Assembly (NCBI GenBank): GCA_000004985.1
Contig: GG738895.1
Strand: one strand, 5' to 3'
From: Naegleria gruberi
Lineage: Eukaryota
DNA: 64,000 nucleotides
This document shows, piece after piece, positions 25,371 to 64,000 of the stretch (its first letter is position 1; each line of letters starts with the position of its first letter). The notes beneath the pieces are model-generated. The model ran no database searches, was not told where the DNA came from, and saw nothing but the letters and a program-made list of their open reading frames with translations. The translations under genes and the position numbers were made by a program.

Positions 25371-26222
25371 ATGTCATCGAAGCCTTCATCATCATCGTCA
25401 TCACCATCAACAACAAGTGAAGGAGGTATCCGACTCTTCTCTCAAAATGAGAGTAAAGCTTGGGCTGAAAAGTTCTTTTTAATTTACGGACCAATTTGGA
25501 TGTCATACTTTTTCTATTTAATTTACTTTGAAATTTATGATAATGCATCAAGAATGGAATGGACAATGTATGGTGTAATTATGGCTACTCCATGTTTCTT
25601 ATATCCATTATTATTCCCTGGTAAGGCTGATCGTAATCTTCCGATTACTGAAAGATATTGGTTCAAGGCTAATATTTGGGTTTTCATCTTTAATTTTGTT
25701 GGAAATTACTTTTGGACTCATTACTTTTATAATCTTTTAGGTGCAACATATACTATGGATACTCATCGTATTAATGATGTTCCATATTTGATGTTTTTAT
25801 GTACTCAAGCTTATTTCACTTTCTATTTCTCATTGAGTAATGTTCTTTTGAGAATTATTTATACTGCATGGAGAAATCCATCAACTTCTAGAAGCATTTT
25901 CATTTGTCTTTTCATTTTGGCTTTCTCTTACTTTACTGCTTTTATGGAAACTTATACCATTCAATATTTCAAGTATTACACTTTCAAGAATAGAGATATG
26001 ATGTACAAAGTTGGTTCAATTGTCTATGGTATTTACTTTATTGTTGGTTTCCCAATGTATTATAGAATGGATGAAGAGGAAACAAAGAAAAAGTTCTCAA
26101 CTTTCAAATGTTGTGTTGAAAGTTTGGGCGCATGCATGTTAGTTACAATTTTGCTTGATTTTTGGAGATTGTTTGTTGGTGGTATTGTTGAAAATGTTCC
26201 TCAATGCGTTCCATGGATGTAA
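25371..26222 (+). CDS. CPI1: Cycloeucalenol cycloisomerase (CPI1-type sterol biosynthesis membrane enzyme)
   Basis: It aligns along its length with plant CPI1, e.g. GKADRNLPITERYWFKANIWVFIFNFVGNYFWTHYF, RMDEEE and LGACMLVTILLDFWRLF. It is a single exon. Confidence 0.85.
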   Translation: MSSKPSSSSSSPSTTSEGGIRLFSQNESKAWAEKFFLIYGPIWMSYFFYLIYFEIYDNASRMEWTMYGVIMATPCFLYPLLFPGKADRNLPITERYWFKANIWVFIFNFVGNYFWTHYFYNLLGATYTMDTHRINDVPYLMFLCTQAYFTFYFSLSNVLLRIIYTAWRNPSTSRSIFICLFILAFSYFTAFMETYTIQYFKYYTFKNRDMMYKVGSIVYGIYFIVGFPMYYRMDEEETKKKFSTFKCCVESLGACMLVTILLDFWRLFVGGIVENVPQCVPWM

Positions 26223-27071
26223 AATTAGTGTGGAATTAAATCAATTTATTTATTAATTTAATATTTGAAATTATCCTAAATTTAGAACCTCATTTCACTA
26301 ACATTCCTTCAATTTATATCGTTTTTCATCATCAATTCTTCTTTGAAATAGGATATCACCATTCAGTAATTTCTCTTCTAATGGAACATTAGAGCAGGAG
26401 AGGAATTGTTTCATTGGTGATTTGAAACATAATCCCTAACTTCACTACAGCTTAATAACACAACATTGGAAATTGTTCAATTCGAAATACTCAATATTTA
26501 ATTTGAATATAGACTCAGTATTATTTAACATATATTGAAAAAAGATTCTCTGTGAAGATGCAAATCTGTTAATGGTAATATCTAAAAATCTTTTATTGGA
26601 TACCAACGCCAAATTCCTTTAGAGCGTTGCAACAGTTCATTCCCATAACTGCAACTGCAATTTTCATATTAATTTCCCAATTCAAATTCTTCAACTTTTC
26701 AAAATCGAAGAGAAAGTAAACTAAACAGCTAAACTAAGGCTATTGTACAATCATTTAAACAATGAAAACACAAACATATCAAAGCTCAAGCTTTCGCCAA
26801 TTAATATGAATCGCCAAGTATGCTTAATACCCTTTCCTTTCGTATATTCTTTCTTTGTTTCGTACAAACAAATATCATCACTATCATTTTCAGATAAGAG
26901 CTCCAAATCCACAACATTATTACTCAAAGGGCCATGGACAACCAATTTTACATAATTGGTCCTTGAGTAATTGCAACTGTTCCTGTCATTTGTCATCTTC
27001 ACAAATAAAGGTGGAAAACTCCTATCAATCTCAATACAAAAAAACATCACAAGAGCGAGTACTACTATTCA

Positions 27072-29155
27072 ATGCCAGTCTTTTCTTTCTTCAAGAAGAA
27101 GGAATCTTCTTCATCAAACACTAAACCAAATTCTGACTTGGCTAAGAAACTTCAACAAAAAGGTTAGTTTTCTATTCGAAACCAACATTAGAATAATTTT
27201 ATTGTTTTAATAGATGCTGGTTCTTGGACAGTCAATGAAGTTGGTATTTGGTTAGATTTAGTTGGTTTAGGAGAATATAAAGTAAGTTGTTGTAGTTTCT
27301 AATAACATTAAACTAAACTATTTAGCCAATATTTATTAACAATTCAATTAGTGGTCAAGAATTACTCGAATTAGGAGAAGAAGGTTTGTTGATATTATTA
27401 TTATTTCCATTAGTTTCTAATAGATATGTTGTGATGATCATTAATTGATGTTTTTATTCGAATCTTTCTAAATTGAACTAAATATCCGTAATATTATCCG
27501 TTACTGTCATCACCCATTGTTAATTCCCATCTCTTTGAATACAATCATTATACATTCATTTATAATACTTTTTACAAATATATATTTAATATTACAATAA
27601 TAACACTATTTATAATAATACTAATACATACAATAATAATACAATAACATGTACATACAATTATATAAAAATAGATATGAATCAACTTCAAGTGACAAAA
27701 CTTGGTCATCGTAAAAAGTTTAAAAAACTTGTTGAAGCACTTAAAAAGAATTCAAATATTACAAATTTCCTTGAAACACTTTCAGAAAATGATTCCGATA
27801 TGATTCCACCAACAAGTAGTAGTAGCAGTTCTAATAATATTAATAATAATAATAATGGTACTGCTAGTAATAGTACAGGTGGAGGTGGAAATTTCACACA
27901 AACAGCTCAACCATCTAATTTCCAAAATAGTAACTTGTCTGAATTGAGTGCAGGTAGTTCAGGAGGTGGTGTTTCAGCTGATTTAGTTTTTAAATGTTAT
28001 CATGCTGAAGATGTTCATTTAATTGCATTGAAAAGAGATAGAGCTACTTTTAGTGAATTGAAATTAAAGATTATTGAAGAATATAATTGTTTAAAACCAA
28101 TTATTAAATACCGTGATACAGAAGGTGATTTTATTAATATTAGAAAGGAAGAAGATTTTAATATTTGTAAACAAAATGTTCCAGTTGACTCTGCTATTAG
28201 ATTATATATTACAACTGAAAATGATGCAGATGACACTTCAAGTCAAACAAGTGGAAGTGAAATGTCATCATCAAATACTGCACAACTTCATGCTCAACGT
28301 CATACAGATCAATTTCCATCAATTTATGCCTCAGATGAAGAACCAGAAATGGATGATGGAGCTGTTTTCTTTGATGACTTTGTTGATTCTGTAATTATTA
28401 TTACAGATGATAAGATTGTTCAATATATGAACAAATCTGCTGAAAAGGCATTTGGTTATACAAAGAAGGAAGTTATTGGAAGAAATGTCAAGATTTTAAT
28501 GAGTAATACTCATAGAATTCAACATGATAATTATGTTGATAATTATTTAAGAACTGGTCAAGCTAAAATTATTGGATCTGGAAGGTAAGTTTTTATACTA
28601 TGAATAATTTCTCTCTAATACACAACTTTACATCTAATTAGAATGGTTGAAGCTCGTGCTAAGGATGGTTTAATTTTCCCAATTTGGTTGAGTGTTGCTG
28701 AATCTGCTTGGTTAGGAAGACATGCTTTCACTGCTACAATTCAAGATTTAAGAAAGGATAAGAGTAAGCATAGTAATTCTTCTGTTACTTCTCTTTTGGA
28801 AAACCTTGTTGATGCTGTCATTATTATTGATCTAAAATGTAATATTTGTTTCTTAAACAAGTCATCTGAAAAGATGTTTGGTTATAATAGAGATGAACTT
28901 ATTGGAAAGAATATTAAACAACTCATGCCTGAGAAGTATTCCATTAATCACGATTCATATGTTTCTCACTATTTGGAAACTGGAGAAAAGAAAGTTATTG
29001 GAAGAGGTAGAAAAGTTACTGCTAAAGATAAGAGTGGATCAATGTTCCCAATTTGGTTGAGCGTCAGTGAAACTAAATTCTCAGGAGAACGATCATTTGT
29101 TGGTACTATTCAGGATCTAAGAAAGGAAAACTCTTTGGACAAGATGTTGCACTAA
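27072..29155 (+). CDS. Signalling protein with SAM, PB1-like and two PAS (LOV-like, no photoactive Cys) domains; five exons. The ORF track shows only the last two exons
   Basis: Exons are 27072-27162, 27214-27281, 27326-27383, 27675-28584 and 28642-29155, with introns of 51, 44, 291 and 57 nt; the total CDS of 1641 nt is in frame. The SAM domain is reconstructed across exons 2-4: WTVNEVGIWLDLVGLGEYKPIFINNSISGQELLELGEEDMNQLQVTKLGHRKKFKKLVEALKK. The PB1-like stretch is KCYHAEDVHLIALK...IKYRDTEGDFINI. PAS1 reads GRNVKILM...IIGSGR|MVEARAKDGLIFPIWLSV, and PAS2 reads GKNIKQLM...GRGRKVTAKDKSGSMFPIWLSV. Confidence 0.7.
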
Positions 29156-29277
29156 ACTTGTTAACACCAAACTAATGTACATTAATAAATATCTAGCTTA
29201 TTTCTATGTTGTAATCTGATTTGATGTAATGAATTAAGGAATAGTTACTTTTAATTTACTAGGTTAATTTATTCAGA

Positions 29278-32200
29278 TTATTTTTTCTTCTTCAACATGT
29301 ATGAAATAATTTCATTCAATGTATCAAAATTATGTTGTTGAGAAATGGAATGGATAAGGTGAATTGTGTCTGCTACCTTTTCACTCTTATTTTCTACTTG
29401 GGCAGAAATCCATTTACCTGAACAGTGGCAACGTTCAAGTACGTTATTGGCATTAATTTGGGAGCATCTAGAACATTGTAAATCTTGCAATTGATATCCA
29501 ACCATCTTATTTTGAACATAGTCAATTAATCTTCCCTCAATTAGAGATTTGTCAAAGTCATTCGAGCAGTGTTTACATTTAAAGATGTTTTCTGTTGTTG
29601 GTTTACCAAGCTCAAGATCACAACAAGAACTACAGAATGAACAAATCATATCAGGAACCTTGAAAATATTCTGGGATCTCTTGAACATTGATTCGGAAGA
29701 GAATTCCTTTACACCCAATAATTTCAGTAAAGATCTCTTGAGCACATTAACTTCATCTCTAATAAAAAGATCAATTGAAAGCATATGGCAAATTGCATTA
29801 ACAAACTCTAATCTAATATCTTTTTCTGATTCTAATTGTAGGGAGAGCTCTTTGAGTTGATTACTCATCACTTCCATCAAACCTTCTGAGAATTTAGTTG
29901 TCAAATATTCTTGGGCATGTTCTTCTTGGATCTTTTGAACTTCTTCTGCCTTCATTGTTGAAATTTTTTCATCCAATGATCTTCTATACTTGAGACATTC
30001 ATACATGTAAGTAGAAAGATAGAATACTAAATGTACTCTAACTGATTCTGGAAGTTCACTCAATAAATCAATGTGTGGATCAGAAGAAAGTCCAGTCTCT
30101 GTTTCTTGGTCTTCCTTAAAGCCCAAGAAGTTATCTTGATTAAACCACAACAAATTACTCCAAGTGTTTTTAACTTCAATATCAACCCAAGTGAATAACT
30201 TTTGTTGTTGAATGCTTGACTTAAGGTAGTCAGTGTAAACCTTAGCTTCATCTGTAGTATTCTTGCCAGTATCTACAATAATCTTAGTGAAGTTGGCATA
30301 GATGATTCTACATCCACACTTCTTAAAGTGAGCACAGAGTTGGAGGAAGACTTTCTTTTGAAGTCTGTAGATGAATGCTAAAATTTCAGGATGGAAAAGC
30401 TTAGCATGAGTATTACAACACCATCTATAAAGATTTGATAACAACAAATCTGGAACATCAGGACAGGTATTGTCATCATTGTGAACATCTGCGAACATTT
30501 TGGAAACAACTTGCTTGAATATTTTGAAAATTTCAGTAACAGTGGAGAATTTAGATGAATTACTAATCTTGTCATCAATTGTTTCTTCAATAAAACTACT
30601 TTGCAAAATGGCATTAATGTCCAAGTGAGAAATATCAAACTCAACACAAACTGAGTGATAGCAAGCAGAGTGATTAATAAAAGTACCACTTCTGGAATAC
30701 AATTGGTCATCACTCAACAATGCTTGTTGTTGTAGTGCATCATTTTCGCAACCTCCTAAATCTGGTTTGTTGGCCTTGCTTAACCACAATACATAGTCAT
30801 TTTGTAAACTTCTTCCAAACATCATGTCAATTAAATGCATAACAAAGTCATTTGATTCAATATTACCAATAGGAATACCACAATAGTTACTGTAGTTAGT
30901 CATATCCTTATACCATTTTTCAATAGCACAATATCTGATAAACATTTGCTTGATACAATTATTAGTCCAGTATGCTGAGAGAGCATGTTGATATTTGTTG
31001 TCTTCTTCACTGAAAGGAATGGCTACAATAGGTATTTCTTCTAACATTGGAGCGATTTCAGAGGCTGAATGAGTTTGGTATGAGAATGGAGACTGAACTA
31101 AAAGCAGAGATGATGCCTTTCTTTCCTTCGCCAAAATGTTGTTAATTTCTTTAAGTACATCAACTCTATTCTTGAAAACATCCAATTCAAATTCTTCAAT
31201 TTCTGTAATATTCAAGTTAGATTGCTCAATAATTTGATCTAATACTTCATCGAATAATCTATCAGGATGCAAACCTGTAGTTTGGAGATCAATTGAATGA
31301 ATCAAATAAATATATGCTTTCTTGTTTGCAAAAGAGAACAAACCAATAACACCTCTGACATCACAACAACTTTCAAAAAGATATAATTTTTGCAAGTTTG
31401 TTACATCTTTGAGATAAGATACACCAGGATTCTTCTTAGAATGACTTCCGTCAACTTGAACAAGATCTGAAACAGTAAGCGTATTGGCAGAGTCAATCTT
31501 TTCTCTTGACTTTGGATGTACTTGACAAAGTGAACCAATTGAAAGAACAGCTCTAAGAACAGGATCAATTTGTGTCTCATAAACACCTTGAATATGAGGA
31601 TTAGAGAATTCAGAGTAAATAGTTTGCAAGTTCTTTTGGTAGTACGACTCTAGCAACTCTTTTCTATAGAGGAATGTATCTCTCTTATTAGCTACTGAAG
31701 TTTCAACAAGCTGACTTGAGAGAATTGGTAATTTCTTATGAGGCTCCTCTGATTCACCTTGCTTTTGATAAAAATTGAGATAGACAACTCTTGGTACTTC
31801 TATCTTGAATGTTCTCATTTTACCTCCAACACTAATAAAAAGCTTGAGAAGACCTGGTGTTTCGGATTCTCTAACTTCAATAACATGCCACACGAGGTCT
31901 TTAAGTTGGTTAGAATAAAATTGAACATATGAAGCCATAGTACCATCATTGACAAGAGTGTTACCATCTGAGGATTTAGATTTCTTGGTCTTGTTCTTCT
32001 TCTTTTTCTTCTTTCTCTTTTGCCCTACCTCTTCACCTAATGAATCATCATCAACATCGTCAATCTTTCTCTTTGTAGATTTAGATTTTGGTTTTTCATC
32101 ACCTGAAGCGTCTTCCATTTCTTCATCACTATCAGAGGAAGAATCTTCTGTTACGGGTATCTTCTTAAGCATATCCATCAAGGATCTTTGTTTGCTTTGA

Positions 32201-35200
32201 CTTGCATTTTCTCTCAACTTTTTGAGCAACCAATCTGGGTGCTTAACTCTAGGTACTGGATTATCAATAGCTTGTAAAGCTGCAGGAATAGTAATAATTT
32301 TTTGAATAGCACTACCCAATCTTTCAATATAATAATCCCAATCAACAATTTCCTTGAGATCGATTTCTGTCATTGATGTATCCTTTGTCCACTTCTTCAA
32401 GAATGACAAGCATACAGATTCCTCCTTTTGGAAAACAACTGTTGGAATAACACGTTCTGTAACACTAGCATTTTCAGGTTTCTTTGCCACAATGTAACTA
32501 CAAACTAAACCCTTATCTCTAACCATTTGTTCACCAAAAAGATCAACCAATCTTTTAGCTGCTGTAATTCTTGCTGCCTTTTGATTACCATATTCTTCTA
32601 ACCTCTTACTCATGTTAGAACTTTCAGTAATATAATCAAAGAGTTGCTTAGTTTCAATTCCTTCACCTTTAGTGTAAAGAATATCCAGCCATCTATTTGC
32701 AATTTCAGCAACATGTTGATAACATTCAGAGAGAGAATATCCTTTTAAGAATTGTTCGAAAACTTGAGATTGGAAAATCTTAATAAGCTTAAGTTCACCT
32801 CTTCTTTTAATTTCGAAACCCTTCAATTCAGCCAAAGTACCATCATGATTGAAAACTGCATATCTCTTCTTAATAGATTTACCTTCTTCCTTTGAGGCTG
32901 GCAAAATCATAGCACGATAAGGACCGTCAACTTCGAAGAAAATGGAACATTCAGCTCTCTTGTCCCATTTTCCAGTTTCTGGATTGAAATTTTGATATTG
33001 ATCGTTACTGAAATTTTGAGCAACATCTGCGTTCAACATCAAACAAGGATAGGAGATTGTTCTCTTCTTACCATTAGTAAGCTTGAGTGTATAATTTTCA
33101 GGGAATGAACCAGGGAGCATGCACCAAATACCATCAGTATCCAATTCCAATGAAATACCAATATCATCGATAAGCTCTCTGGCCATTCTAATAATTTGAG
33201 CACCATTGTAAGTAACAACACCAGCCATTTCCATACTGTACCATCTGGCAGCTTTTCTCATAACGTAACCGTAGAAAGAGTTCAAAATACACTTGTGGGC
33301 AAGTTGAAGAGAATCGTACAAAACTAACATGACTTTGGACTTTTCTTCAAATTCTGGATCTTTAGACTTGTCCTTCCATTCTTTGGATTTATCTTTAAGT
33401 ACATATCTTCTGTCACGAAATTCTCTAACTGTATTTACATAGAATGGATTTTCTCTTTGACAAATAGTAGCATCCTTGACCATACTTTCCTTATTATATT
33501 TCTTCTTGTGGGCCTTTTGACTGATTTCACCCACTCTCTTTCTTAATTCTTCATTGGTAAAGTTTGGATTATCGTTCATTAAAGAATTCTTGGCAATATT
33601 AAATTCAGATCTAGATGCTGTAAAATATTCAGCTCTAAAGTGCCACTTCATTATTCTCTTACAATCATTCTCTGGCTTATTGTAAATGCATTGAGCACAG
33701 GTGTCCTCGTTAACAATAGCAGATGGTTGAAGTCTGTGTGTAAGAATAATGTTAGGATACATAGCACCAACATCCAAGTGATATAATTTTGGACATTCTT
33801 CTCTTTCTGGTTTTTCTTTGAGTTTAAGTAAACCATCAATAATTTCTTGTTTCAATTCCTCAAAGTTGGCAACATCTTCAACTTTCAATTGTTGTTCAAC
33901 TTCAATTGCAAATCTAATGACTCTATCTACATTATCAACTAATTGTTGATATCTGTCTGGATTTAATTTGAATTTGTATGGTATATCTGATCTATAAACA
34001 CCAGACTTTAAACCTTCTACACGACCACCGATATATGTTTCACTTGCTAACAAGTGACCCTTATACATCTTTTCAGGATCTGATTGATATCTATTTGGGA
34101 AAATAATATTACCCTTGAATGCTTGTACCATGAGAAGTGTTTCACAGAGTGTACCTGATCCTTTTCTCAAAACTTCATCTGGTGGCATTGGAATAATGTT
34201 ACAAAGTGAGAAGATAAAAGGATTGATATACTTCATATATAAATAGTATGTTGAAACTGCATCAGAAACAGAATAAGAAGCCAATTTTTGAGGTTGACTT
34301 GTTGCAAAAGGTAACATATCTTCAGGATCTACTTCAATAGGATCATACTTTAACTTGGCTTTAGTGACAGCTTTCAAACCATGAGAACCTTGAGGTAAAT
34401 AACTGTCTCTGATAACCCAATACAGACAATCGATATGGAGACCAAAACTACTGCCATAAAGCGTGTCAGATCCAAGCTTTTTGCAATCTCCTGACATTCT
34501 ATAGTAACCTACATGGTCTCTAAGATTCAGTGAATATACACTAGCTCTTTGTTCTATGAAAGGCCAATCGAAAAAGTCACCGTTATACGTCACATATACA
34601 CATGGTTTTTCTTCTTGCATATGTGAAAACCATTTAAGTAATAACTCTTTTTCATTTTCTACGTTGAAAACTTCAAAATATCCAGGGAATTCATCTTTTG
34701 GAGTATAATCAAAATTTTCGATATCTTCAGCGACGATTTCACGATTCACAATTAAGTAACCGTGGCCGTCAATCATATAAGATATCATCATAATTCTATC
34801 TGATTGTGGATCAGGGAACATGAGAGGAGGTTTTGTGGTTTCAATATCGAAAGCACAAACTTTAGGAACAGCTCTTTCTTCGATATCTTCTCTCTTTGAA
34901 ATCAAAACATTTCCTTCCTCAACAGAAATATCATACCAATAACCAACTCTTAAATCTGTATCAATGGCACAACGAATATGATATTTAATATCATATTCTC
35001 TAATATCAACTATCTTGTCAACACAATCAATAGTCGAAAGTTTAGCTTTCCTTTTACGTCTAATTCCTCTTTCGTAGTCATCAAGATCATCTAAGAACTG
35101 ATCCTCCATTTCTTCGTTCAATAACTCTTCTTCTAATAGCTCAAACGAATCTTGACTCTTTTTCTTATTTTTTTCAATTATTGGTAATAACTTAGATCTC

Positions 35201-35760
35201 ATTTCCATCAATTGTTGAACGTTTTTAAATCTCAATTTCAAGTACTTTGCCTTTATACCGGAAAGGTGATTAACCTTGTCAAGATCTTCTTTATCTACTA
35301 TATCCAATGATACTATTGGGTCCATTGATGTTAAATAATTGCAAACTTCTGTAAATGAATTGTCATCCTTCACAGCAATATAGAAATATGGTTCGAATAC
35401 TTTGGTGACAGAAAAAGAGTCACCTTCATCACTCATAAAATATAACACAACTGCAGCAAGATCCATATCCGAAGAATTGGCATCATCTTCACCTCCGGAC
35501 CCACCCATAGTCAATTTTTCTGGTACACTCGTTGCTCTAAAGTTTACCAACCAACCCAGATTCTTTGTACCCTCCATCTGTGGTCCAAAGAATCGTTTGT
35601 CAATTTCAATTTCCTCTAGTTTTTTCTTTTCTCTATATTCTTTTAATTGTTGAGCTTTTTCATCGTCATCCAATCTTTCTTGTTGACTGCCATGGTCTCC
35701 TTTCTTCTTTGTGGGCTTGTTTAGCAGCCGAGGTTTATTGTTGGATTTGTTTGTGTACAT
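29278..35760 (-). CDS. POLE: DNA polymerase epsilon catalytic subunit A
   Basis: The 2160-aa single exon has the exonuclease motifs FDIETTK and YNGDFFDWPF, the polymerase motif DVGAMYPNIILTHRLQP, and C-terminal Cys clusters CSFCSSCCD...CKHCSN and CSRCSQ...CHCSGKW. Confidence 0.95.
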   Translation of the reverse strand: MYTNKSNNKPRLLNKPTKKKGDHGSQQERLDDDEKAQQLKEYREKKKLEEIEIDKRFFGPQMEGTKNLGWLVNFRATSVPEKLTMGGSGGEDDANSSDMDLAAVVLYFMSDEGDSFSVTKVFEPYFYIAVKDDNSFTEVCNYLTSMDPIVSLDIVDKEDLDKVNHLSGIKAKYLKLRFKNVQQLMEMRSKLLPIIEKNKKKSQDSFELLEEELLNEEMEDQFLDDLDDYERGIRRKRKAKLSTIDCVDKIVDIREYDIKYHIRCAIDTDLRVGYWYDISVEEGNVLISKREDIEERAVPKVCAFDIETTKPPLMFPDPQSDRIMMISYMIDGHGYLIVNREIVAEDIENFDYTPKDEFPGYFEVFNVENEKELLLKWFSHMQEEKPCVYVTYNGDFFDWPFIEQRASVYSLNLRDHVGYYRMSGDCKKLGSDTLYGSSFGLHIDCLYWVIRDSYLPQGSHGLKAVTKAKLKYDPIEVDPEDMLPFATSQPQKLASYSVSDAVSTYYLYMKYINPFIFSLCNIIPMPPDEVLRKGSGTLCETLLMVQAFKGNIIFPNRYQSDPEKMYKGHLLASETYIGGRVEGLKSGVYRSDIPYKFKLNPDRYQQLVDNVDRVIRFAIEVEQQLKVEDVANFEELKQEIIDGLLKLKEKPEREECPKLYHLDVGAMYPNIILTHRLQPSAIVNEDTCAQCIYNKPENDCKRIMKWHFRAEYFTASRSEFNIAKNSLMNDNPNFTNEELRKRVGEISQKAHKKKYNKESMVKDATICQRENPFYVNTVREFRDRRYVLKDKSKEWKDKSKDPEFEEKSKVMLVLYDSLQLAHKCILNSFYGYVMRKAARWYSMEMAGVVTYNGAQIIRMARELIDDIGISLELDTDGIWCMLPGSFPENYTLKLTNGKKRTISYPCLMLNADVAQNFSNDQYQNFNPETGKWDKRAECSIFFEVDGPYRAMILPASKEEGKSIKKRYAVFNHDGTLAELKGFEIKRRGELKLIKIFQSQVFEQFLKGYSLSECYQHVAEIANRWLDILYTKGEGIETKQLFDYITESSNMSKRLEEYGNQKAARITAAKRLVDLFGEQMVRDKGLVCSYIVAKKPENASVTERVIPTVVFQKEESVCLSFLKKWTKDTSMTEIDLKEIVDWDYYIERLGSAIQKIITIPAALQAIDNPVPRVKHPDWLLKKLRENASQSKQRSLMDMLKKIPVTEDSSSDSDEEMEDASGDEKPKSKSTKRKIDDVDDDSLGEEVGQKRKKKKKKNKTKKSKSSDGNTLVNDGTMASYVQFYSNQLKDLVWHVIEVRESETPGLLKLFISVGGKMRTFKIEVPRVVYLNFYQKQGESEEPHKKLPILSSQLVETSVANKRDTFLYRKELLESYYQKNLQTIYSEFSNPHIQGVYETQIDPVLRAVLSIGSLCQVHPKSREKIDSANTLTVSDLVQVDGSHSKKNPGVSYLKDVTNLQKLYLFESCCDVRGVIGLFSFANKKAYIYLIHSIDLQTTGLHPDRLFDEVLDQIIEQSNLNITEIEEFELDVFKNRVDVLKEINNILAKERKASSLLLVQSPFSYQTHSASEIAPMLEEIPIVAIPFSEEDNKYQHALSAYWTNNCIKQMFIRYCAIEKWYKDMTNYSNYCGIPIGNIESNDFVMHLIDMMFGRSLQNDYVLWLSKANKPDLGGCENDALQQQALLSDDQLYSRSGTFINHSACYHSVCVEFDISHLDINAILQSSFIEETIDDKISNSSKFSTVTEIFKIFKQVVSKMFADVHNDDNTCPDVPDLLLSNLYRWCCNTHAKLFHPEILAFIYRLQKKVFLQLCAHFKKCGCRIIYANFTKIIVDTGKNTTDEAKVYTDYLKSSIQQQKLFTWVDIEVKNTWSNLLWFNQDNFLGFKEDQETETGLSSDPHIDLLSELPESVRVHLVFYLSTYMYECLKYRRSLDEKISTMKAEEVQKIQEEHAQEYLTTKFSEGLMEVMSNQLKELSLQLESEKDIRLEFVNAICHMLSIDLFIRDEVNVLKRSLLKLLGVKEFSSESMFKRSQNIFKVPDMICSFCSSCCDLELGKPTTENIFKCKHCSNDFDKSLIEGRLIDYVQNKMVGYQLQDLQCSRCSQINANNVLERCHCSGKWISAQVENKSEKVADTIHLIHSISQQHNFDTLNEIISYMLKKKK

Positions 35761-53600: not shown

Positions 53601-54047
53601 GGTATTTGAATTCTAGCTGGTGATGCCGGTGACCTAATTTTAATATTATTATTATAAATATATTTTAATATTAAATATATTATATCATCAGATAAATGTT
53701 GAAAATTATAATTATGACAGGAAGAAACAATGTACTGTACATACCCTCCTCATCCCATGTTGTTGTTTGATTGTATTTTTTTTTTAAATGGCTTGTTTGA
53801 AGAGTGAAATGTGATGCATTGTAAATGGAATAATATTAAATATTGACATTATTGTAAAATATGTTGTATTTATTAAATATATTGATAAATACTAATTGTT
53901 ATTTTCACTTTGTGATGATTCTGATAATGAACTTTTCTTGTTCTTTGTAACACAATGTTTGAAATGGAAATCAATTTCATAATTGACCAAAATGTAATTT
54001 GAAATTTAATCAAATTCTATTTCTGAAAAACAATTATTTAAAAAAAA

Positions 54048-54815
54048 ATGGGAGTTTTAGGTAAAAGAGTTTATAGAAAATACAAACAAAAATACATTAA
54101 CAAGTATTTTAAATATTCCTATCAATGTGATTTTCCAAATAGAAAACAAATATTTCAAATACAATCACCTTATCTAACATTTAATGAACAATATTCACCA
54201 TCATCTAAATATCCACAACTATTGACACCTGTCACTAAAACAAGTATTTCAAATTTAAAGTTAACATGTATGAAGAAACCACTCATTCAAATACCTACAT
54301 TTAAAAGAATTATCAATAGATCAATGGAATTATCAGCTCCAGATATAATGCCATTAAAAGAAGAATATAATTATAATATTGTAAAGTTGAATATTAGCAC
54401 AATAGATGATCAACAGTGTGCACAAACAGAATTTAATGGATTTCGTTTAACGAGAGATAAATTAACATCACTAACTTGTAGAAAATGGCATTCAATAATA
54501 ACATTTAATAATACATTTAAAAGTATGGATGGATATCATGTTAGAATTTTCATGACATCATGTACAAGAATGAAATTATTACAAATTAAAAAGACATCAT
54601 ATGCTAACAAGTCACAAATTAAAAAGATTAGAACTATAATGTATCAAGTAATATTAAAATATTTAAGTAAAATGACAATATTAGAATTTGTTAATAGAAT
54701 GGCAATTAAATGTGAAATGAGCAGTGAAATTAGAATGAAATGTGAAAATATTTATCCATTAGAGGATGAAATTTTAATTACAAAGATTAAATTATTAGAA
54801 AAACCTCAACTTTAA
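54048..54815 (+). CDS. Highly divergent ribosomal protein eS1 (RPS3A)-like ORF of 255 aa, either a diverged paralogue or a decaying copy
   Basis: The C-terminal two-thirds aligns with eS1: FNGFRLTRDKLTSLTCRKW...DGYHVRIF...LQIKKTSYANKSQIKKIR...CENIYPLEDEILITKIKLLEKPQ versus human FHGMDLTRDKMCSMVKKW...DGYLLRLF...NQIRKTSYAQHQQVRQIR...[22 protein letters not shown]. The N-terminal third is not recognisable, and the region is extremely AT-rich. Confidence 0.6.
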   Translation: MGVLGKRVYRKYKQKYINKYFKYSYQCDFPNRKQIFQIQSPYLTFNEQYSPSSKYPQLLTPVTKTSISNLKLTCMKKPLIQIPTFKRIINRSMELSAPDIMPLKEEYNYNIVKLNISTIDDQQCAQTEFNGFRLTRDKLTSLTCRKWHSIITFNNTFKSMDGYHVRIFMTSCTRMKLLQIKKTSYANKSQIKKIRTIMYQVILKYLSKMTILEFVNRMAIKCEMSSEIRMKCENIYPLEDEILITKIKLLEKPQL

Positions 54816-54915
54816 CAATTTTTCTATTAATATTTATGTAAATATTAAATAAATAGATAAAAATGTAAAAATTAAAAAATCAATTAAATTAAAAAATTAA
54901 ATAAAAAAATAAAAT

Positions 54916-56067
54916 TTAATTTTCATTTTCTTTTTTATCCTTATTTCCTCCTAAACCAATATATGCAATTGCAACAATACCAACAGTTAATGCAAATAAA
55001 ATTGCAACAAATTTTTTAAATTTTTTAGAATTTTTAGTTTTTTCTTCTCTTCCAACAATGATATCAAGTTGCCAATTATGAAATTCTCTTGTTCTATCAA
55101 TAATTTCTTGATCTTTTGAACCTAAACGATGATACCATTCTTCTAAAGATAATCTATATTGTAACCAATGTAATAAATAATTATTTTCAAAATATTTTGT
55201 AATAACTTCATATTGAGCTCTTGCTATAATTGGTTTTGTTAATTCATTTCTTTGATATAAATCATTTGGTCCACTTTGTCCAATTGCTTTTAATTCTTGA
55301 TAATAAATTGAATTATTTAATTCATCATCATTTATTGTTAAAAATGTATTTTTATAAATTTCTTTAATATTTTCATCTGATAATTTTTCAATATTATTTA
55401 ATTGTAATGAAGGAGATGATTCTATTGTTGATTTTATATTATTAAATTCATTCAATCCAAAATTAATTAAAATTCTTTTAATAAAATTAAAAATATTTAA
55501 ATCTTGATATTTATATAATTCATTTTTAAATAAAACTACTTTTAAAGTAATTTGATTAGAAATTTCACCTTCATCTTGAAGTTTTTCATCAATTGAATAA
55601 ATTTGTGGATATTTTTGTTTTAATACTTTATAATAACTTTGATTTACTATTTGAGTAATTGAATTCCATTTTAAAAATAAATTTTCTTCAGGTTGATTTG
55701 GAAGATTTAAAACTTGATTAAATAATTTATGAGAATATACTTGTTCTTCTACTTGATTTAATATTTCTTGTAATTCATCTCTTGAAAATTTATTTTCATC
55801 ATTATTTAAATTATTATTTAAATTATTTTCATCATTATTTAAATTATTATTATTCAAATTATTATTAGAATGATATAATGATTGATGATAATTAAATGAT
55901 GATAATGTTATTAATTTGAATAATTGATGTTGATTATTCATACTACATGATGTTATTGTTGTTGGAAGAAGAAAATTATTCATTCCGATAGAATTATTCA
56001 TCTTTATAATAGAAGATGAACAATTTCTACTATTACTCTTTGATAATTGTATTACTGCTCTTCTCAT
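54916..56067 (-). CDS. Hypothetical protein with a presequence-like N-terminus, Asn/Leu-rich repeats (LNNNNLNNDEN x2) and a C-terminal transmembrane anchor
   Basis: It is a 383-aa ORF with a C-terminal hydrophobic segment FVAILFALTVGIVAIAYIGL and no recognised domain; the sequence is very AT-rich. Confidence 0.5.
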   Translation of the reverse strand: MRRAVIQLSKSNSRNCSSSIIKMNNSIGMNNFLLPTTITSCSMNNQHQLFKLITLSSFNYHQSLYHSNNNLNNNNLNNDENNLNNNLNNDENKFSRDELQEILNQVEEQVYSHKLFNQVLNLPNQPEENLFLKWNSITQIVNQSYYKVLKQKYPQIYSIDEKLQDEGEISNQITLKVVLFKNELYKYQDLNIFNFIKRILINFGLNEFNNIKSTIESSPSLQLNNIEKLSDENIKEIYKNTFLTINDDELNNSIYYQELKAIGQSGPNDLYQRNELTKPIIARAQYEVITKYFENNYLLHWLQYRLSLEEWYHRLGSKDQEIIDRTREFHNWQLDIIVGREEKTKNSKKFKKFVAILFALTVGIVAIAYIGLGGNKDKKENEN

Positions 56068-61475: not shown

Positions 61476-64000
61476 ATGAATAGGAATAAACCCACTTTTA
61501 ATTCTAGTAGTGGTGGTAGTAGCAGCCCGCCAAATATTAATAACAAACAACAAATTCCACTTTTAATGAAGGAGGCCTCAATAACATTGTTTCCTTCAGC
61601 ATCAACTTCATCATCATCACTACATAATAACAATGATATTAATAATAATAACAATAATAATCAAAAGTCATCCACTTCGACTACTGCTAAGGATCAACAA
61701 GTAACATCATCTTCATTGGCTATTAATAATACTAATAACAATCGAGAACCAATCAACAAACATCTCCAACTACAAATAAATATCAACAATAACAGTATTG
61801 GTGGAAGTGGAGGTGGTGGTCCTAAAACATTCTCTCCCAAACCAAAGATTAATTCATCACCATCATTTCAATATATGATGTCAAAGAGACCTTCATCGGT
61901 TGGAAGTAATAAGAGAACACCCTCATTCAAATCAACAAATTCATCCTCTTCTCTTCTCTCTCCAAGAACAAAGCCTTCATCATTTCCTTCTTCATCTTCT
62001 ACTACAAATACTAATAACTCTTCTACTAGTAATAGTAATAGTAACAGTTATGGATCATCACCCTCATTAAAAACTACTAATATTATTCTAAATACAAGTA
62101 ATAATAATACTACTCCAAATAATCATAATAATTCATCATCATCACTCAATAATTTATTTTCCAATACAAGTAAGCAACAACAACAACAATCAAATGATAA
62201 TACTACTACTAATAATCATCATCATCATTCTAATACACCTAAAAGAGTGTGGTCTAGTTCACAACGTCCACAATTACCTAAAATGTCAAGTATTAATTCT
62301 TCATTATCAACACCAGTTACACCTTCACCTGATTCTCAAATGTTTAAATCTCATTCAAATAGTGGAAGTAATTTATTAAGTAATTCTAATTCAACATCAA
62401 ATTTAAGAAGAGAATTAATTAATAATAGTGGAAGTAGAAGAAATACATTTAGTAGTTATTCATTAAATCCATCTCCAATACCTAAATTAGGACAATTAAA
62501 TACTATAATTGGTGTATCAAGTGCAACTAATAATTCGAGCCAAAGTTCATTAACAAGTGTTACTTCTACATATAGTATTAATATTGCTTTAAATAATTCA
62601 TCATCTACTACAAGTTTATTATCAAATGGATATAATGGAGCATCTACATCTTCTTTAAATAATACAGTTACAAATAATAATAATAATATAAATATTAAAT
62701 CTGATAATATTATAGTCAATAATAATAATAATAATTCTAATACAGGAAATACAATTACTAATAATAATACAGTTAATATTAATAATAATTCAACTAAATC
62801 TGATAATAATCATCCAATATTAACAGTTACTAATAATAATAATAATAATAATCAAATTATTTTAAATAATTCAAATAATTCAACAATTCCATTTAATAGA
62901 AAAAATGCAATTACACAAAATCCAGTATTTAGTACAACATCATTAAGTATTAATAATAATACAAGTAATACAAATAATACTAATAATACTAATAATACTA
63001 ATAATATTTCCAATAATAATGGAAATAATCAATCGACAAGCACAGTAACAAATAATATAAATAATAACATAAATAATTCTTCTAAATCTAATAATACTTC
63101 AAAATCAATAACATCAAATAATAATTCTACTTTTAATTCTACTTCCAATAATATAAATAATTCCAATAATAGTAATAACTCATCCAGTAACTCATCTAAT
63201 AATTCTTCTAATAATTCTAATAATAATAATAACAAATTAATTTCAACATTAAATTTAAACAATTTAAATTTATCTATTAGTAGTGTACCATCATCAGCAA
63301 GATCATTTGCATCACCACCACCCTCTAGTCATATTTCACCTAAATCTAGAATTGGACAAAATTATACAATTTATGATCATAAAAATAATTCATTATCATT
63401 AACTTGTAGTAGTAATAGATCAAGTATAGAAAATGATTCATTAGAAATACAAAAAGGACCAATTCCATCAAACAAATTTCCACATCAAATTTCACCACCT
63501 CAATCACCTACTCTAAGTAATAATACAAGTTTATTATCTTTAAATTCTTCAATAGATTCTTTTAAACCTAAAAAGGGTGGAAATACTCCAAATATAGTAA
63601 ATCAATTTAATGAAAATATATTTAAATCAAATCATTCTATTAACACTCCAATGAAAGGTAAAAATAAAATGGATCAAAATTTACTTTCAACAAGTACACA
63701 ATCAGATAAAGAAGAAGAAAGAGCTAAAATTCAAGAAGAAATTAAACAAATTTCAGATGAATTAAAAAAACAAGACGCCATTACTTTATTAGATCAAAAT
63801 GATAAACAAATTATAACAAGTATAATATCAAAATCTAATACTACTTCTACTAATAATAATATAAATGGTAATATAAATGGTAATATGAATATAAATGGTA
63901 ATAATAATGAAAATGAAGATGTACTTAAATATAATTTTTATAAAATGTTAAAATTAAATCTTCAAGAAGAAGAAGAAGAAGATTTATTTAATGAAATTAT
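61476..64000 (+). CDS. Large Asn/Ser/Thr-rich low-complexity protein; 5' complete, 3' end beyond the window (not in the ORF track because no stop is reached)
   Basis: The ATG at 61476 is followed by >840 codons read open by eye to the window end, with homopolymeric N/S/T runs. The C-terminal portion in view turns charged and helical (DKEEERAKIQEEIKQISDELKKQDAITLLDQ). Confidence 0.55.
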   Translation, partial: MNRNKPTFNSSSGGSSSPPNINNKQQIPLLMKEASITLFPSASTSSSSLHNNNDINNNNNNNQKSSTSTTAKDQQVTSSSLAINNTNNNREPINKHLQLQININNNSIGGSGGGGPKTFSPKPKINSSPSFQYMMSKRPSSVGSNKRTPSFKSTNSSSSLLSPRTKPSSFPSSSSTTNTNNSSTSNSNSNSYGSSPSLKTTNIILNTSNNNTTPNNHNNSSSSLNNLFSNTSKQQQQQSNDNTTTNNHHHHSNTPKRVWSSSQRPQLPKMSSINSSLSTPVTPSPDSQMFKSHSNSGSNLLSNSNSTSNLRRELINNSGSRRNTFSSYSLNPSPIPKLGQLNTIIGVSSATNNSSQSSLTSVTSTYSINIALNNSSSTTSLLSNGYNGASTSSLNNTVTNNNNNINIKSDNIIVNNNNNNSNTGNTITNNNTVNINNNSTKSDNNHPILTVTNNNNNNNQIILNNSNNSTIPFNRKNAITQNPVFSTTSLSINNNTSNTNNTNNTNNTNNISNNNGNNQSTSTVTNNINNNINNSSKSNNTSKSITSNNNSTFNSTSNNINNSNNSNNSSSNSSNNSSNNSNNNNNKLISTLNLNNLNLSISSVPSSARSFASPPPSSHISPKSRIGQNYTIYDHKNNSLSLTCSSNRSSIENDSLEIQKGPIPSNKFPHQISPPQSPTLSNNTSLLSLNSSIDSFKPKKGGNTPNIVNQFNENIFKSNHSINTPMKGKNKMDQNLLSTSTQSDKEEERAKIQEEIKQISDELKKQDAITLLDQNDKQIITSIISKSNTTSTNNNINGNINGNMNINGNNNENEDVLKYNFYKMLKLNLQEEEEEDLFNEI

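What the first reader, a model, noticed from the sequence alone, without database searches (positions are those of the whole stretch)
27072..29155. SAM-PB1-PAS-PAS signalling protein; both LOV-like PAS domains have the flavin-adduct Cys position replaced by Val or Ile
Three short upstream exons, invisible in the ORF track, encode a canonical SAM domain whose last helix (DMNQLQVTKLGHRKKFKKLVEALKK) is completed by the large exon. They are followed by a poly-N/S linker, a PB1-like module and two PAS domains. The PAS domains have the LOV spacing: GRNVKILM and GKNIKQLM in place of GRNCRFLQ, each followed by ...DG..FP.WLSV. A scaffold of oligomerisation modules (SAM, PB1) with Cys-less LOV-like sensors is an unusual architecture, possibly a redox, ligand or dark-state sensor. 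The 291-nt intron 3 is by far the longest in the window.
Basis: partly seen in the sequence, partly recalled or inferred. Interest (0 to 1): 0.55.

Follow-up and report, generated by a model that had tools for sequence, protein, structure and literature searches.

The report
Amoeba protein with two heme sensors
This Naegleria gruberi gene joins two bacterial-type (FixL-like) heme-binding gas-sensor domains to two eukaryotic assembly modules (SAM and PB1); the sensor domains are not crippled light sensors as first thought, and the public gene model lacks the exons that encode most of the SAM domain.

Summary
Five GT..AG exons (27072-29155, +) encode a 546-aa protein with SAM, a disordered N/S-rich linker, PB1 and two PAS domains. 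The window is Naegleria gruberi NEG-M. The public model (XP_002672777.1, 473 aa) starts at Met74 and lacks exons 1-3. Those exons are conserved in size, phase and sequence in N. fowleri and Willaertia magna.

The PAS domains are not LOV-like. Each matches FixL heme domains at E about 1e-21 to 1e-23 (about 40% identity), while the best LOV match is E = 0.03 over 36 residues. GRNVKILM aligns with FixL GQNVNILM, so Val/Ile is the normal FixL residue. Both domains keep the proximal heme histidine (His356, His479), the distal arginine (Arg376, Arg499) and the hydrophobic pocket. These residues are near-invariant across about 15 eukaryotic relatives.

Most likely this is a cytosolic heme-based O2/gas sensor with no enzymatic output. 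It would signal through SAM and a type-AB PB1 domain (oligomerisation or partner recruitment). That output step is inferred.

A 2023 supplementary table already lists the protein as "PB1 PAS_c3 PAS_c3" and an Acanthamoeba homologue as SAM-PB1-PAS x3. No experimental work was found. I rate it a new variant of a known kind, of moderate interest.

The parts
27072..27162 (+). Exon 1 (start codon, residues 1-30 plus 1 nt). Encodes a conserved N-terminus MP.F.FF.KKK and the lead-in to the SAM domain.
   Evidence: model. (same exon end and phase in N. fowleri and W. magna). (alignment).
27163..27213 (+). Intron 1, 51 nt, GT..AG, phase 1.
27214..27281 (+). Exon 2 (68 nt), SAM helices 1-2.
   Evidence: 68 nt in all three species. 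(differences mostly at third codon positions).
27282..27325 (+). Intron 2, 44 nt, GT..AG, phase 0.
27326..27383 (+). Exon 3 (58 nt), SAM helices 3-4.
27384..27674 (+). Intron 3, 291 nt, GT..AG, phase 1. It is 160 nt in N. fowleri and 44 nt in W. magna. No RNA family or conserved element was found in it. The public 473-aa model begins just after it, at ATG 27677.
27675..28584 (+). Exon 4: last SAM helix, N/S-rich disordered linker, PB1, second linker, and PAS-A up to the first two bases of the Arg376 codon.
28585..28641 (+). Intron 4, 57 nt, GT..AG. It contains an in-frame stop and is specific to N. gruberi. It splits the codon of Arg376.
   Evidence: N. fowleri is uninterrupted here..
28642..29155 (+). 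Exon 5: rest of PAS-A, PAS-B, and stop codon TAA at 29153-29155.
27222..27745 (+). SAM domain, residues 34-96. It spans exons 2-4 across introns 2 and 3.
   Evidence: SAM_1 E = 7.7e-17, full profile length. SAM hits to Liprin-beta, Caskin, SHANK, DGK-delta and Eph; five helices between residues 37 and 97, pLDDT about 80-86.
27770..27976 (+). Poly-N/S/G linker, residues 105-173. Predicted disordered, and variable in length between species.
   Evidence: indels. (pLDDT below 50).
27983..28216 (+). PB1 domain, residues 176-253. It has both the beta-1 lysine (K179, codon 27992-27994) and an OPCA acidic motif YRDTEGDFINIRKEEDF (Y218-F234; invariant D220, G223, D224). This makes it type AB.
   Evidence: profile against the PDB returns only PB1 chains, Cdc24 at 1.4e-8, plus TFG, Bem1 and p62; pLDDT 90; the top 30 Foldseek hits are all PB1, TM about 0.8; invariant columns.
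28364..28762 (+). PAS-A, residues 303-416 (interrupted by intron 4). FixL-type heme-PAS. Proximal His356 is at codon 28523-28525. Distal Arg376 has a split codon (28583-28584 plus 28642). Val344 lies in GRNVKILM.
28784..29128 (+). PAS-B, residues 424-538. FixL-type heme-PAS. Proximal His479 is at codon 28949-28951 and distal Arg499 at codon 29009-29011. Ile467 lies in GKNIKQLM.

Best explanation
The locus is the Naegleria gruberi gene NAEGRDRAFT_52059. Correctly modelled, it encodes a 546-aa soluble protein with SAM, a disordered linker, PB1, and two tandem FixL/DosP-type heme-binding PAS domains.

Shown:
- the domain identities;
- conservation of the heme-ligating histidine and the ligand-contacting arginine in both PAS domains and throughout the eukaryotic family;
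- absence of any catalytic output domain.

Inferred:
- Each PAS domain binds one heme b through His356 or His479, five-coordinate as in FixL. There is no Met at the position of the DosP distal ligand Met95.
- O2 (or CO/NO) binds the ferrous heme. Arg376/Arg499 swing into the distal pocket and shift the FG loop, as in FixL.
- In FixL this change switches a histidine kinase. Here it would alter the association state or accessibility of the N-terminal modules.
- SAM is a head-to-tail or heterotypic SAM-SAM binder. The PB1 domain carries both the basic (Lys) and acidic (OPCA) faces, so it could self-polymerise or bind PB1-bearing partners.
- The protein would thus act as an oxygen-dependent scaffold or adaptor that assembles, releases or sequesters downstream signalling proteins.

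The PAS pair was probably acquired from bacteria, where the closest relatives are tandem heme-PAS histidine kinases, and then fused to eukaryotic SAM-PB1.
For: Sequence and fold of the PAS domains:
- FixL heme domains are the best PDB matches for both PAS domains (E = 1.7e-23 and 1.7e-21), followed by DosP.
- The AF2 model superposes on single FixL heme domains with TM 0.83-0.94 and rmsd 1.2-1.6 A at 40% identity. The tandem FixL PAS structure 8js5 is the top Foldseek hit at 2e-16.

Heme pocket:
- His200, Tyr203, Tyr207, Ile215/216, Arg220, Val222, Leu236, Ile/Val238 and Phe249 (BjFixL numbering) are conserved in both domains.
- The same residues are conserved in about 40 PAS domains of about 15 eukaryotic homologues. 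His356, Arg376, His479 and Arg499 are invariant in the 8-sequence alignment.
- Position 218, which corresponds to DosP Met95, is Ser or Arg.

Literature:
- Xing et al. [quoted passage not shown]
- Their Data S3 assigns both PAS domains of XP_002672777.1 to that cluster.

Output modules and family:
- SAM and PB1 are verified.
- K179 and the OPCA residues are invariant.
- The architecture is conserved in N. fowleri, Willaertia (two paralogues), Stenamoeba, Dermamoeba, Paradermamoeba and Acanthamoeba. At least 9 further 50%-identity clusters share it.

Bona fide eukaryotic gene:
- It has spliceosomal introns and shares its upstream neighbour with N. fowleri.

Closest non-eukaryotic relatives:
- Bacterial hybrid histidine kinases with two or three tandem PAS domains carrying the same signature, 38-42% identical.
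Against: - No biochemical evidence for heme binding or for any gas response exists for any member of this family.
- Arg206 of BjFixL, which contacts a heme propionate, is Asn362 in PAS-A and His485 in PAS-B. Details of the switch may therefore differ.
- The output step (ligand-controlled SAM/PB1 assembly) is pure inference. No partner is known, and the AF2 inter-domain geometry is unreliable (pTM 0.32).
- There is no transcript evidence from N. gruberi itself for exons 1-3.
- A Naegleria pangenome paper lists heme among the nutrients the amoebae obtain by feeding. That leaves room for a role in sensing heme supply instead of gas.
Confidence: 0.6

Rival explanations
1. A heme-availability or redox sensor instead of a gas sensor. 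The PAS domains would bind heme reversibly, or respond to the Fe(II)/Fe(III) state. The protein would then report labile heme supply or cellular redox state in an amoeba that takes up heme from prey.
For: The heme-binding signature is the same as for the best explanation. E. coli DosP, the second-best structural relative, has been described as a redox-controlled switch (title of reference 28 in PMC10468136). The Naegleria pangenome paper lists heme among nutrients obtained by feeding. Arg206 is not conserved.
Against: The distal Arg220 equivalent contacts the bound ligand in FixL (established FixL structural work). It is invariant in essentially all domains of the family, which argues for selection on ligand binding. 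There is no Met at the DosP Met95 position, so DosP-like hexacoordinate redox switching is unlikely. The pocket is the tight prosthetic-group pocket of FixL at 40% identity.
Confidence: 0.2
2. PAS domains that descend from heme-PAS but now bind another small ligand, or none, and serve mainly as dimerisation modules. The histidine would be retained by ancestry.
For: Xing et al. report that 40% of sequences in the FixL/DosP cluster lack the histidine, so the fold tolerates other functions. Some three- and four-PAS family members have lost His in an internal PAS domain: P0194, P0196 and P0211.
Against: In this protein and its close relatives, His, Arg and the hydrophobic pocket residues are invariant across Heterolobosea and Amoebozoa at only about 33% overall identity. 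That is hard to explain without selection for heme.
Confidence: 0.1
3. One reading: LOV-derived PAS domains that lost the adduct cysteine, acting as flavin-binding dark-state or redox sensors.
For: There is a superficial motif resemblance, GRNVKILM against GRNCRFLQ. Pfam PAS_9 also covers LOV domains.
Against: The best LOV structure scores E = 0.03 over 36 residues, against 1.7e-21 for FixL over the whole domain. The LOV residues after the Cys (R, F, Q of NCRFLQ) are K, I, M here, as in FixL. Xing et al. place the domains in cluster 3 (heme) and not cluster 11 (FMN).
Confidence: 0.02
4. A gene-model rival. The public 473-aa model is the real or major product: transcription starts inside 'intron 3' and the protein is PB1-PAS-PAS without a functional SAM domain.
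For: The deposited N. gruberi annotation starts at ATG 27677. Intron 3 is unusually long for this gene (291 nt against 160 and 44 nt in the relatives) and AT-rich, so it could hold a promoter.
Against: That model begins with only the fifth SAM helix, an incomplete fold. Exons 1-3 are under purifying selection and have conserved intron positions in three species. The annotated N. fowleri and W. magna models, and complete de novo transcripts from Stenamoeba and Paradermamoeba, carry the full SAM.
Confidence: 0.1

Closest known systems
FixL heme-PAS domain (Bradyrhizobium japonicum / Sinorhizobium meliloti; PDB 1dp6, 1d06, 8js5)
   Same: About 40% identity over the whole 110-residue domain, with no gaps between the proximal His and the distal Arg. 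Conserved residues (BjFixL numbering): His200, Tyr203, Tyr207, Ile215, Arg220, Val222, Leu236, Ile238 and Phe249. Predicted fold superposes at rmsd 1.2-1.6 A.
   Different: There is no histidine kinase or any other catalytic output. Both tandem PAS domains are of the heme type, whereas in BjFixL only PAS-B is. Arg206 is Asn or His. The gene is eukaryotic, contains introns, and is fused to SAM and PB1.
E. coli DosP (EcDos) heme-PAS phosphodiesterase (PDB 1v9y, 9cdr)
   Same: Same heme-PAS cluster and a tandem PAS arrangement (E about 1e-11 to 1e-13).
   Different: There is no distal Met95 equivalent (Ser or Arg here), and there are no GGDEF/EAL domains.
Bacterial hybrid histidine kinases with two or three tandem heme-type PAS domains (for example P0007, P0010-P0015)
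   Same: These are the closest non-eukaryotic relatives of the PAS pair, 38-42% identical over both domains. They share the same signature, including Asn at BjFixL position 206.
   Different: They carry HisKA/HATPase/receiver outputs and no SAM or PB1.
Acanthamoeba castellanii XP_004334674.1 and the SAM-PB1-PAS x3 transcripts of Stenamoeba, Dermamoeba and Paradermamoeba
   Same: Same family: SAM, PB1, then FixL-cluster PAS domains with the His/Arg signature.
   Different: They have three PAS domains instead of two and are about 33% identical. All are uncharacterised.
Type-AB PB1 scaffolds (p62/SQSTM1, TFG, atypical PKC) and polymerising SAM proteins (Caskin, SHANK, DGK-delta)
   Same: The PB1 has both the beta-1 Lys and the OPCA motif, like p62 and TFG. 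The SAM is most similar to SAM domains of scaffold proteins.
   Different: None of these carries a gas or cofactor sensor domain. Polymerisation of this protein has not been tested.
LOV domains (phototropin, YtvA, Brucella LOV-HK)
   Same: The generic PAS fold and the N-terminal PAS core.
   Different: No adduct Cys, no NCRFLQ flavin contacts, and only marginal partial sequence matches.

Membership tests
FixL/DosP-type heme-binding PAS (cluster 3 of Xing et al. 2023) | Full-domain sequence similarity to solved heme-PAS domains | tested here: met
   PAS-A hits FixL at 1.7e-21 and DosP at 2.6e-11. PAS-B hits FixL at 1.7e-23. Data S3 of PMC10468136 labels both domains PAS_c3.
FixL/DosP-type heme-binding PAS (cluster 3 of Xing et al. 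2023) | Proximal heme-ligating histidine on helix F-alpha (BjFixL His200) | tested here: met
   His356 and His479 are invariant in the family alignment and lie in long helices 350-366 and 473-489 of the model.
FixL/DosP-type heme-binding PAS (cluster 3 of Xing et al. 2023) | Distal arginine on G-beta that contacts the bound ligand (BjFixL Arg220), plus the hydrophobic distal residues Ile215, Leu236 and Ile238 | tested here: met
   Arg376 and Arg499 are invariant. Position 215 is Ile or Val, position 236 is Leu, and position 238 is Val.
FixL/DosP-type heme-binding PAS (cluster 3 of Xing et al. 2023) | Propionate-binding Arg206 (BjFixL) | tested here: not met
   It is Asn362 in PAS-A and His485 in PAS-B. 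The closest bacterial tandem-PAS kinases also have Asn here.
FixL/DosP-type heme-binding PAS (cluster 3 of Xing et al. 2023) | Actual heme b binding and reversible O2/CO/NO binding | not testable with these tools
   This needs recombinant protein and UV-visible spectroscopy.
FixL proper (oxygen-sensing histidine kinase of FixL/FixJ systems) | C-terminal HisKA/HATPase kinase regulated by the heme-PAS | tested here: not met
   The protein ends 8 residues after PAS-B. Pfam finds no kinase domain.
LOV domain | Conserved Cys in GXNCRFLQ that forms the flavin adduct | tested here: not met
   Val344 and Ile467 occupy this position. These are the residues FixL has at the same position.
LOV domain | Closest similarity to LOV structures, and flavin-contacting residues of NCRFLQ and downstream | tested here: not met
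   The best LOV chain scores E = 0.03 and aligns over query residues 17-52 only. R, F and Q of NCRFLQ are K, I and M here.
SAM domain (PF00536) | Full-length profile match above threshold and a five-helix bundle | tested here: met
   SAM_1 scores 61.9 bits against a cut-off of 23, covering profile positions 2-64 of 64. Five helices lie at 37-46, 50-58, 63-67, 71-76 and 82-97.
PB1 domain (PF00564) | Profile match and a ubiquitin-like beta-grasp fold | tested here: met
   Pfam scores 24.7 bits against a cut-off of 23.6. The family profile against the PDB returns only PB1 chains, best 1.4e-8. The AF2 model has pLDDT 90 and a bb-a-bb-a-b topology. The top 30 Foldseek hits are all PB1, TM about 0.8.
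PB1 domain, type AB (self-associating) | Both the beta-1 lysine and the OPCA acidic motif | tested here: met
   K179 sits in LVFKCYH and aligns with the TFG lysine. The OPCA motif is YRDTEGDFINIRKEEDF. K179, D220, G223 and D224 are invariant. Self-association itself was not tested.

The most novel reading that the evidence does not exclude
This would be the first eukaryotic FixL-type direct oxygen sensor. Its output would not be an enzyme but ligand-controlled polymerisation or partner capture through SAM and type-AB PB1 modules, an O2-switchable signalling scaffold. It would belong to a wider, unstudied set of bacterial-type heme-PAS proteins in amoebae. That set may include giant proteins with 13 tandem His/Arg-signature PAS domains and a TmcB-type N-terminal region.
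Probability: 0.25. Interest if true: 0.75.

Novelty: new variant of a known kind. Interest (0 to 1): 0.5.

Why it matters
How free-living and pathogenic amoebae such as Naegleria sense oxygen is largely unknown. They move between oxic and anoxic microhabitats, and the Naegleria literature searched here mentions only hemerythrins as possible oxygen sensors.

A conserved cytosolic protein with two intact FixL-type heme pockets is a concrete, cheaply testable candidate for a direct O2 sensor in eukaryotes. The 76%-identical orthologue in the human pathogen N. fowleri adds interest.

Its output modules are unusual for a gas sensor. If they are ligand-controlled, it would be a new way of coupling a bacterial sensor domain to eukaryotic scaffold assembly.

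Practically, the public N. gruberi gene model should be extended by 73 residues.

Tried and rejected
- LOV assignment: rejected.
- Functional RNA or conserved element in the long intron 3: Rfam at E <= 1 found nothing across 26200-29400. blastn against the N. fowleri and W. magna loci gave only low-complexity AT matches.
- A gene on the minus strand in the 850-bp upstream gap: the 99-aa ORF at 26751-27050 has no conserved counterpart in the N. fowleri or W. magna loci, and the six-frame view shows nothing coherent.
- Other heme-PAS genes in the window: none found by six-frame HMM scan.
- Literature on this protein by locus tags and accessions: no hits. Searches for Naegleria or amoeba with FixL or PAS turned up only the genome-wide PAS survey.
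- Intron identity by global alignment: not informative for AT-rich sequence, so it was disregarded.
- NJ tree of PAS domains: eukaryotic domains mostly cluster together, next to bacterial FixL-type domains. The tree has no support values, so I use it only as a hint of a single acquisition.
- 'tmcB' literature search: only unrelated acronyms.
Full report
**Where we are.** The window is from Naegleria gruberi strain NEG-M. The 2160-aa ORF at 29278-35760 (-) is identical to XP_002672840.1, the DNA polymerase epsilon catalytic subunit. The ORF at 25371-26222 (+) is identical to the CPI1-like protein XP_002672776.1. The finding lies between these two genes.

**The observation.**
- Reading the sequence and joining five exons gives an uninterrupted 1641-nt CDS of 546 aa. 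The exons are 27072-27162, 27214-27281, 27326-27383, 27675-28584 and 28642-29155.
- All four introns are GT..AG and have 20-23% GC.
- Pfam finds SAM_1 at residues 34-96 over the whole profile (E = 7.7e-17), PB1 at 178-237 (24.7 bits, just above the 23.6 cut-off) and two PAS domains.
- The deposited N. gruberi model (EFC40033.1 / XP_002672777.1 / D2VT71, NAEGRDRAFT_52059) is 473 aa. It is identical to my model from Met74 onward. It therefore includes intron 4 but misses exons 1-3 and four of the five SAM helices.

**Evidence that exons 1-3 are real.**
- The N. fowleri orthologue FDP41_012938 (76% identical, 525 aa) and the Willaertia magna orthologue (68%, 544 aa) are annotated with the full SAM domain.
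- In both genomes the three N-terminal introns sit at the same positions and phases. Exon 2 is 68 nt and exon 3 is 58 nt in all three species. Intron 3 is 291, 160 and 44 nt respectively.
- Differences across exons 2+3 fall mostly on third codon positions: 5/2/22 against N. fowleri and 4/2/18 against W. magna. Amino-acid identity is 36/42 and 39/42.
- Complete de novo transcripts from the amoebozoans Stenamoeba stenopodia and Paradermamoeba levis encode SAM, PB1 and PAS on one mRNA.
- Intron 4 (57 nt, with an in-frame stop) is specific to N. gruberi. Splicing it restores GSGRMVEARAKDG, which matches N. fowleri GTGRMVEARAKDG.
- I could not test N. gruberi transcripts directly.

**PB1 and SAM.**
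- The marginal Pfam PB1 score was checked in two ways. First, a profile of the eight family PB1 segments searched against all PDB sequences returned only PB1 domains: Cdc24 at 1.4e-8, then TFG, Bem1, p62, NBR1, p40phox, PKC-zeta and MEK5. Second, an AF2 model of the segment (pLDDT 90, b-b-a-b-b-a-b) gave Foldseek hits that are all PB1 for the top 30, with TM about 0.8.
- The domain carries both the beta-1 lysine (K179 in LVFKCYH, aligned to the TFG lysine) and an OPCA-type acidic motif (YRDTEGDFINIRKEEDF). K179, D220, G223 and D224 are invariant in the family.
- By the usual PB1 classification (my own knowledge) this is type AB, the kind that can self-associate head to tail, as in p62 and TFG.
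- In the full-length AF2 model the four domains fold with pLDDT about 75-90. Residues 105-173 and 255-276 are disordered, and there is no reliable inter-domain packing (pTM 0.32).

**The PAS domains are heme-PAS, not LOV.**
- The whole protein searched against every PDB sequence finds FixL heme domains first (1d06 at 1.7e-23, 1dp6 at 1.8e-21), then E. coli DosP (about 1e-13). Only after these come SAM-domain structures, and there are no LOV chains at E <= 0.01.
- PAS-A alone gives FixL at 1.7e-21 and DosP at 2.6e-11. The best LOV protein scores E = 0.03 and aligns only over query residues 17-52, the generic N-terminal PAS core that ends at the GRNVKILM motif.
- The printed alignments are gap-free from the motif to the end of the domain. 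GRNVKILM and GKNIKQLM align with FixL GQNVNILM and GQNLRILM. HDNYVDNYLRTGQAKIIGSGR aligns with HDSYISRYRTTSDPHIIGIGR. DGLIFPIWLSV aligns with DGTTFPMHLSI.
- The AF2 model superposes on single FixL heme domains with TM 0.83-0.94 and rmsd 1.2-1.6 A at about 40% identity. The tandem FixL PAS structure 8js5 and DosP are the top Foldseek hits.

**Heme-pocket residues.** I aligned all PAS domains of the family and of their bacterial relatives to a small HMM and read off the BjFixL positions.
- Both N. gruberi domains keep His200 (His356, His479), Tyr203, Tyr207, Ile215/Ile216 (Ile or Val), Arg220 (Arg376, Arg499), Val222, Phe232, Leu236, Ile238 (Val) and Phe249.
- The same signature is present in about 40 domains from about 15 eukaryotic homologues. 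The His and Arg columns are invariant in the 8-sequence alignment.
- Two differences from canonical FixL stand out. Arg206 is Asn (PAS-A) or His (PAS-B), as in the closest bacterial tandem-PAS kinases. The position of the DosP distal ligand Met95 is Ser or Arg, so a five-coordinate FixL-like heme is more likely than a DosP-like six-coordinate one.
- Xing et al. [quoted passage not shown]

**What is already known.**
- The supplementary Data S3 of that paper lists 'XP_002672777.1 ... NAEGRDRAFT_52059: PB1 PAS_c3 PAS_c3'. It also lists Acanthamoeba castellanii XP_004334674.1 as 'SAM_1 PB1 PAS_c3 PAS_9_c3 PAS_9_c3', where c3 is the FixL/DosP cluster.
- The same table shows that most of the roughly 74 N. 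gruberi PAS proteins found by HMMER are 'PAS_9_c3 + Guanylate_cyc'.
- The cluster assignment therefore exists in a table. I found no text in the searchable library that discusses this protein, its architecture or its function.

**Distribution and origin.**
- Word-indexed and exhaustive searches find the SAM-PB1-PAS(2-4) architecture in several lineages: Naegleria, Willaertia (two paralogues), the discosean amoebozoans Stenamoeba, Dermamoeba and Paradermamoeba, and several metagenome or read-archive contigs. At least nine further 50%-identity clusters share it.
- The nearest non-eukaryotic relatives are bacterial hybrid histidine kinases with two or three tandem PAS domains of the same signature, 38-42% identical over the pair.
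- A crude NJ tree puts most eukaryotic domains in one group, next to the bacterial FixL-type group. It has no support values.
- The gene is a resident eukaryotic gene. It has spliceosomal introns and AT-rich composition like its neighbours, and it shares the upstream CPI1-like neighbour with N. fowleri.
- The simplest reading is an old bacterial acquisition of a tandem heme-PAS cassette, fused to eukaryotic SAM-PB1. This is an inference.

**Mechanism.**
- Shown: two intact FixL-type heme pockets, no catalytic domain, a complete SAM, a type-AB PB1, and long disordered linkers.
- Inferred: each PAS binds heme b through His356 or His479. O2 (or CO/NO) binding recruits Arg376 or Arg499 into the distal pocket and moves the FG loop, as established for FixL.
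- Inferred: this conformational or dimerisation change is read out through SAM- and PB1-mediated self-assembly or recruitment of SAM/PB1-bearing partners, and not through a kinase.
- I put about 0.8 on heme binding. I put about 0.6 on the overall statement that this is a heme-based gas sensor acting as a scaffold.
- Rivals: a heme-supply or redox sensor (0.2), a non-heme ligand or dimerisation module (0.1), and the LOV reading (0.02). An orthogonal rival is that the SAM-less public model is the real product (0.1).

**Verdict.** This is a new variant of a known kind, a bacterial-type heme-PAS sensor coupled to eukaryotic oligomerisation modules. It is already catalogued at domain level but uncharacterised. 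Interest is 0.5.

Noticed in passing
Not in the window. Proteins P0095, P0097 and P0104; locus L003 1001-11248.: The strongest matches to the family profile among 1.84 billion representatives are giant proteins of 2,400-3,600 aa. They have an N-terminal Pfam TPR_TmcB region and 13 tandem FixL-type PAS domains. Nearly all of those domains carry the His200/Tyr203/Tyr207/Arg220 signature. P0097 is a single intron-less ORF on a read-archive contig (SRR7085473), and the organism is unknown.
   Followed up: partly
Proteins P0194, P0196, P0211 and P0227 (family members from the exhaustive search).: In several three- or four-PAS members of the SAM-PB1-PAS family, an internal PAS domain has lost the heme histidine (Gly, Lys or Ser), while the flanking domains keep it. 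This suggests subfunctionalisation within the array.
   Followed up: no
Window 27072-27110 (residues 1-13).: The N-terminal motif MP.F.FF.KKK (hydrophobic, then polybasic) is conserved in Naegleria and Willaertia but not in the amoebozoan members. It may be a membrane-binding or targeting element.
   Followed up: no
Window 28583-28642.: The N. gruberi-specific intron 4 splits the codon of Arg376, the equivalent of the FixL ligand-contacting Arg220. N. fowleri and W. magna have no intron here.
   Followed up: yes
Window 25371-26222 (+) and 29278-35760 (-).: The neighbours are a CPI1-like cycloeucalenol cycloisomerase and an intron-less 2160-aa DNA polymerase epsilon catalytic subunit. The latter converges on the gene with only 122 bp between the two stop codons. 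The upstream neighbour is syntenic in N. fowleri; the downstream one is not.
   Followed up: partly
Window 54001-56000 and 62001-64000.: GC content drops to about 0.19-0.22, against about 0.30-0.35 elsewhere in the window. I did not examine these regions.
   Followed up: no
Supplementary Data S3 of PMC10468136.: About 60 N. gruberi proteins combine a FixL/DosP-cluster PAS domain with an adenylate/guanylate cyclase domain. I did not check whether those PAS domains keep the heme histidine, or whether they could pair with this protein's PAS domains.
   Followed up: no
Proteins P0076-P0084.: Short SAM-only proteins (96-183 aa) from various assemblies are 34-58% identical to this protein's SAM domain. 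They could be truncated gene calls of family members or genuine SAM-only paralogues and partners.
   Followed up: no
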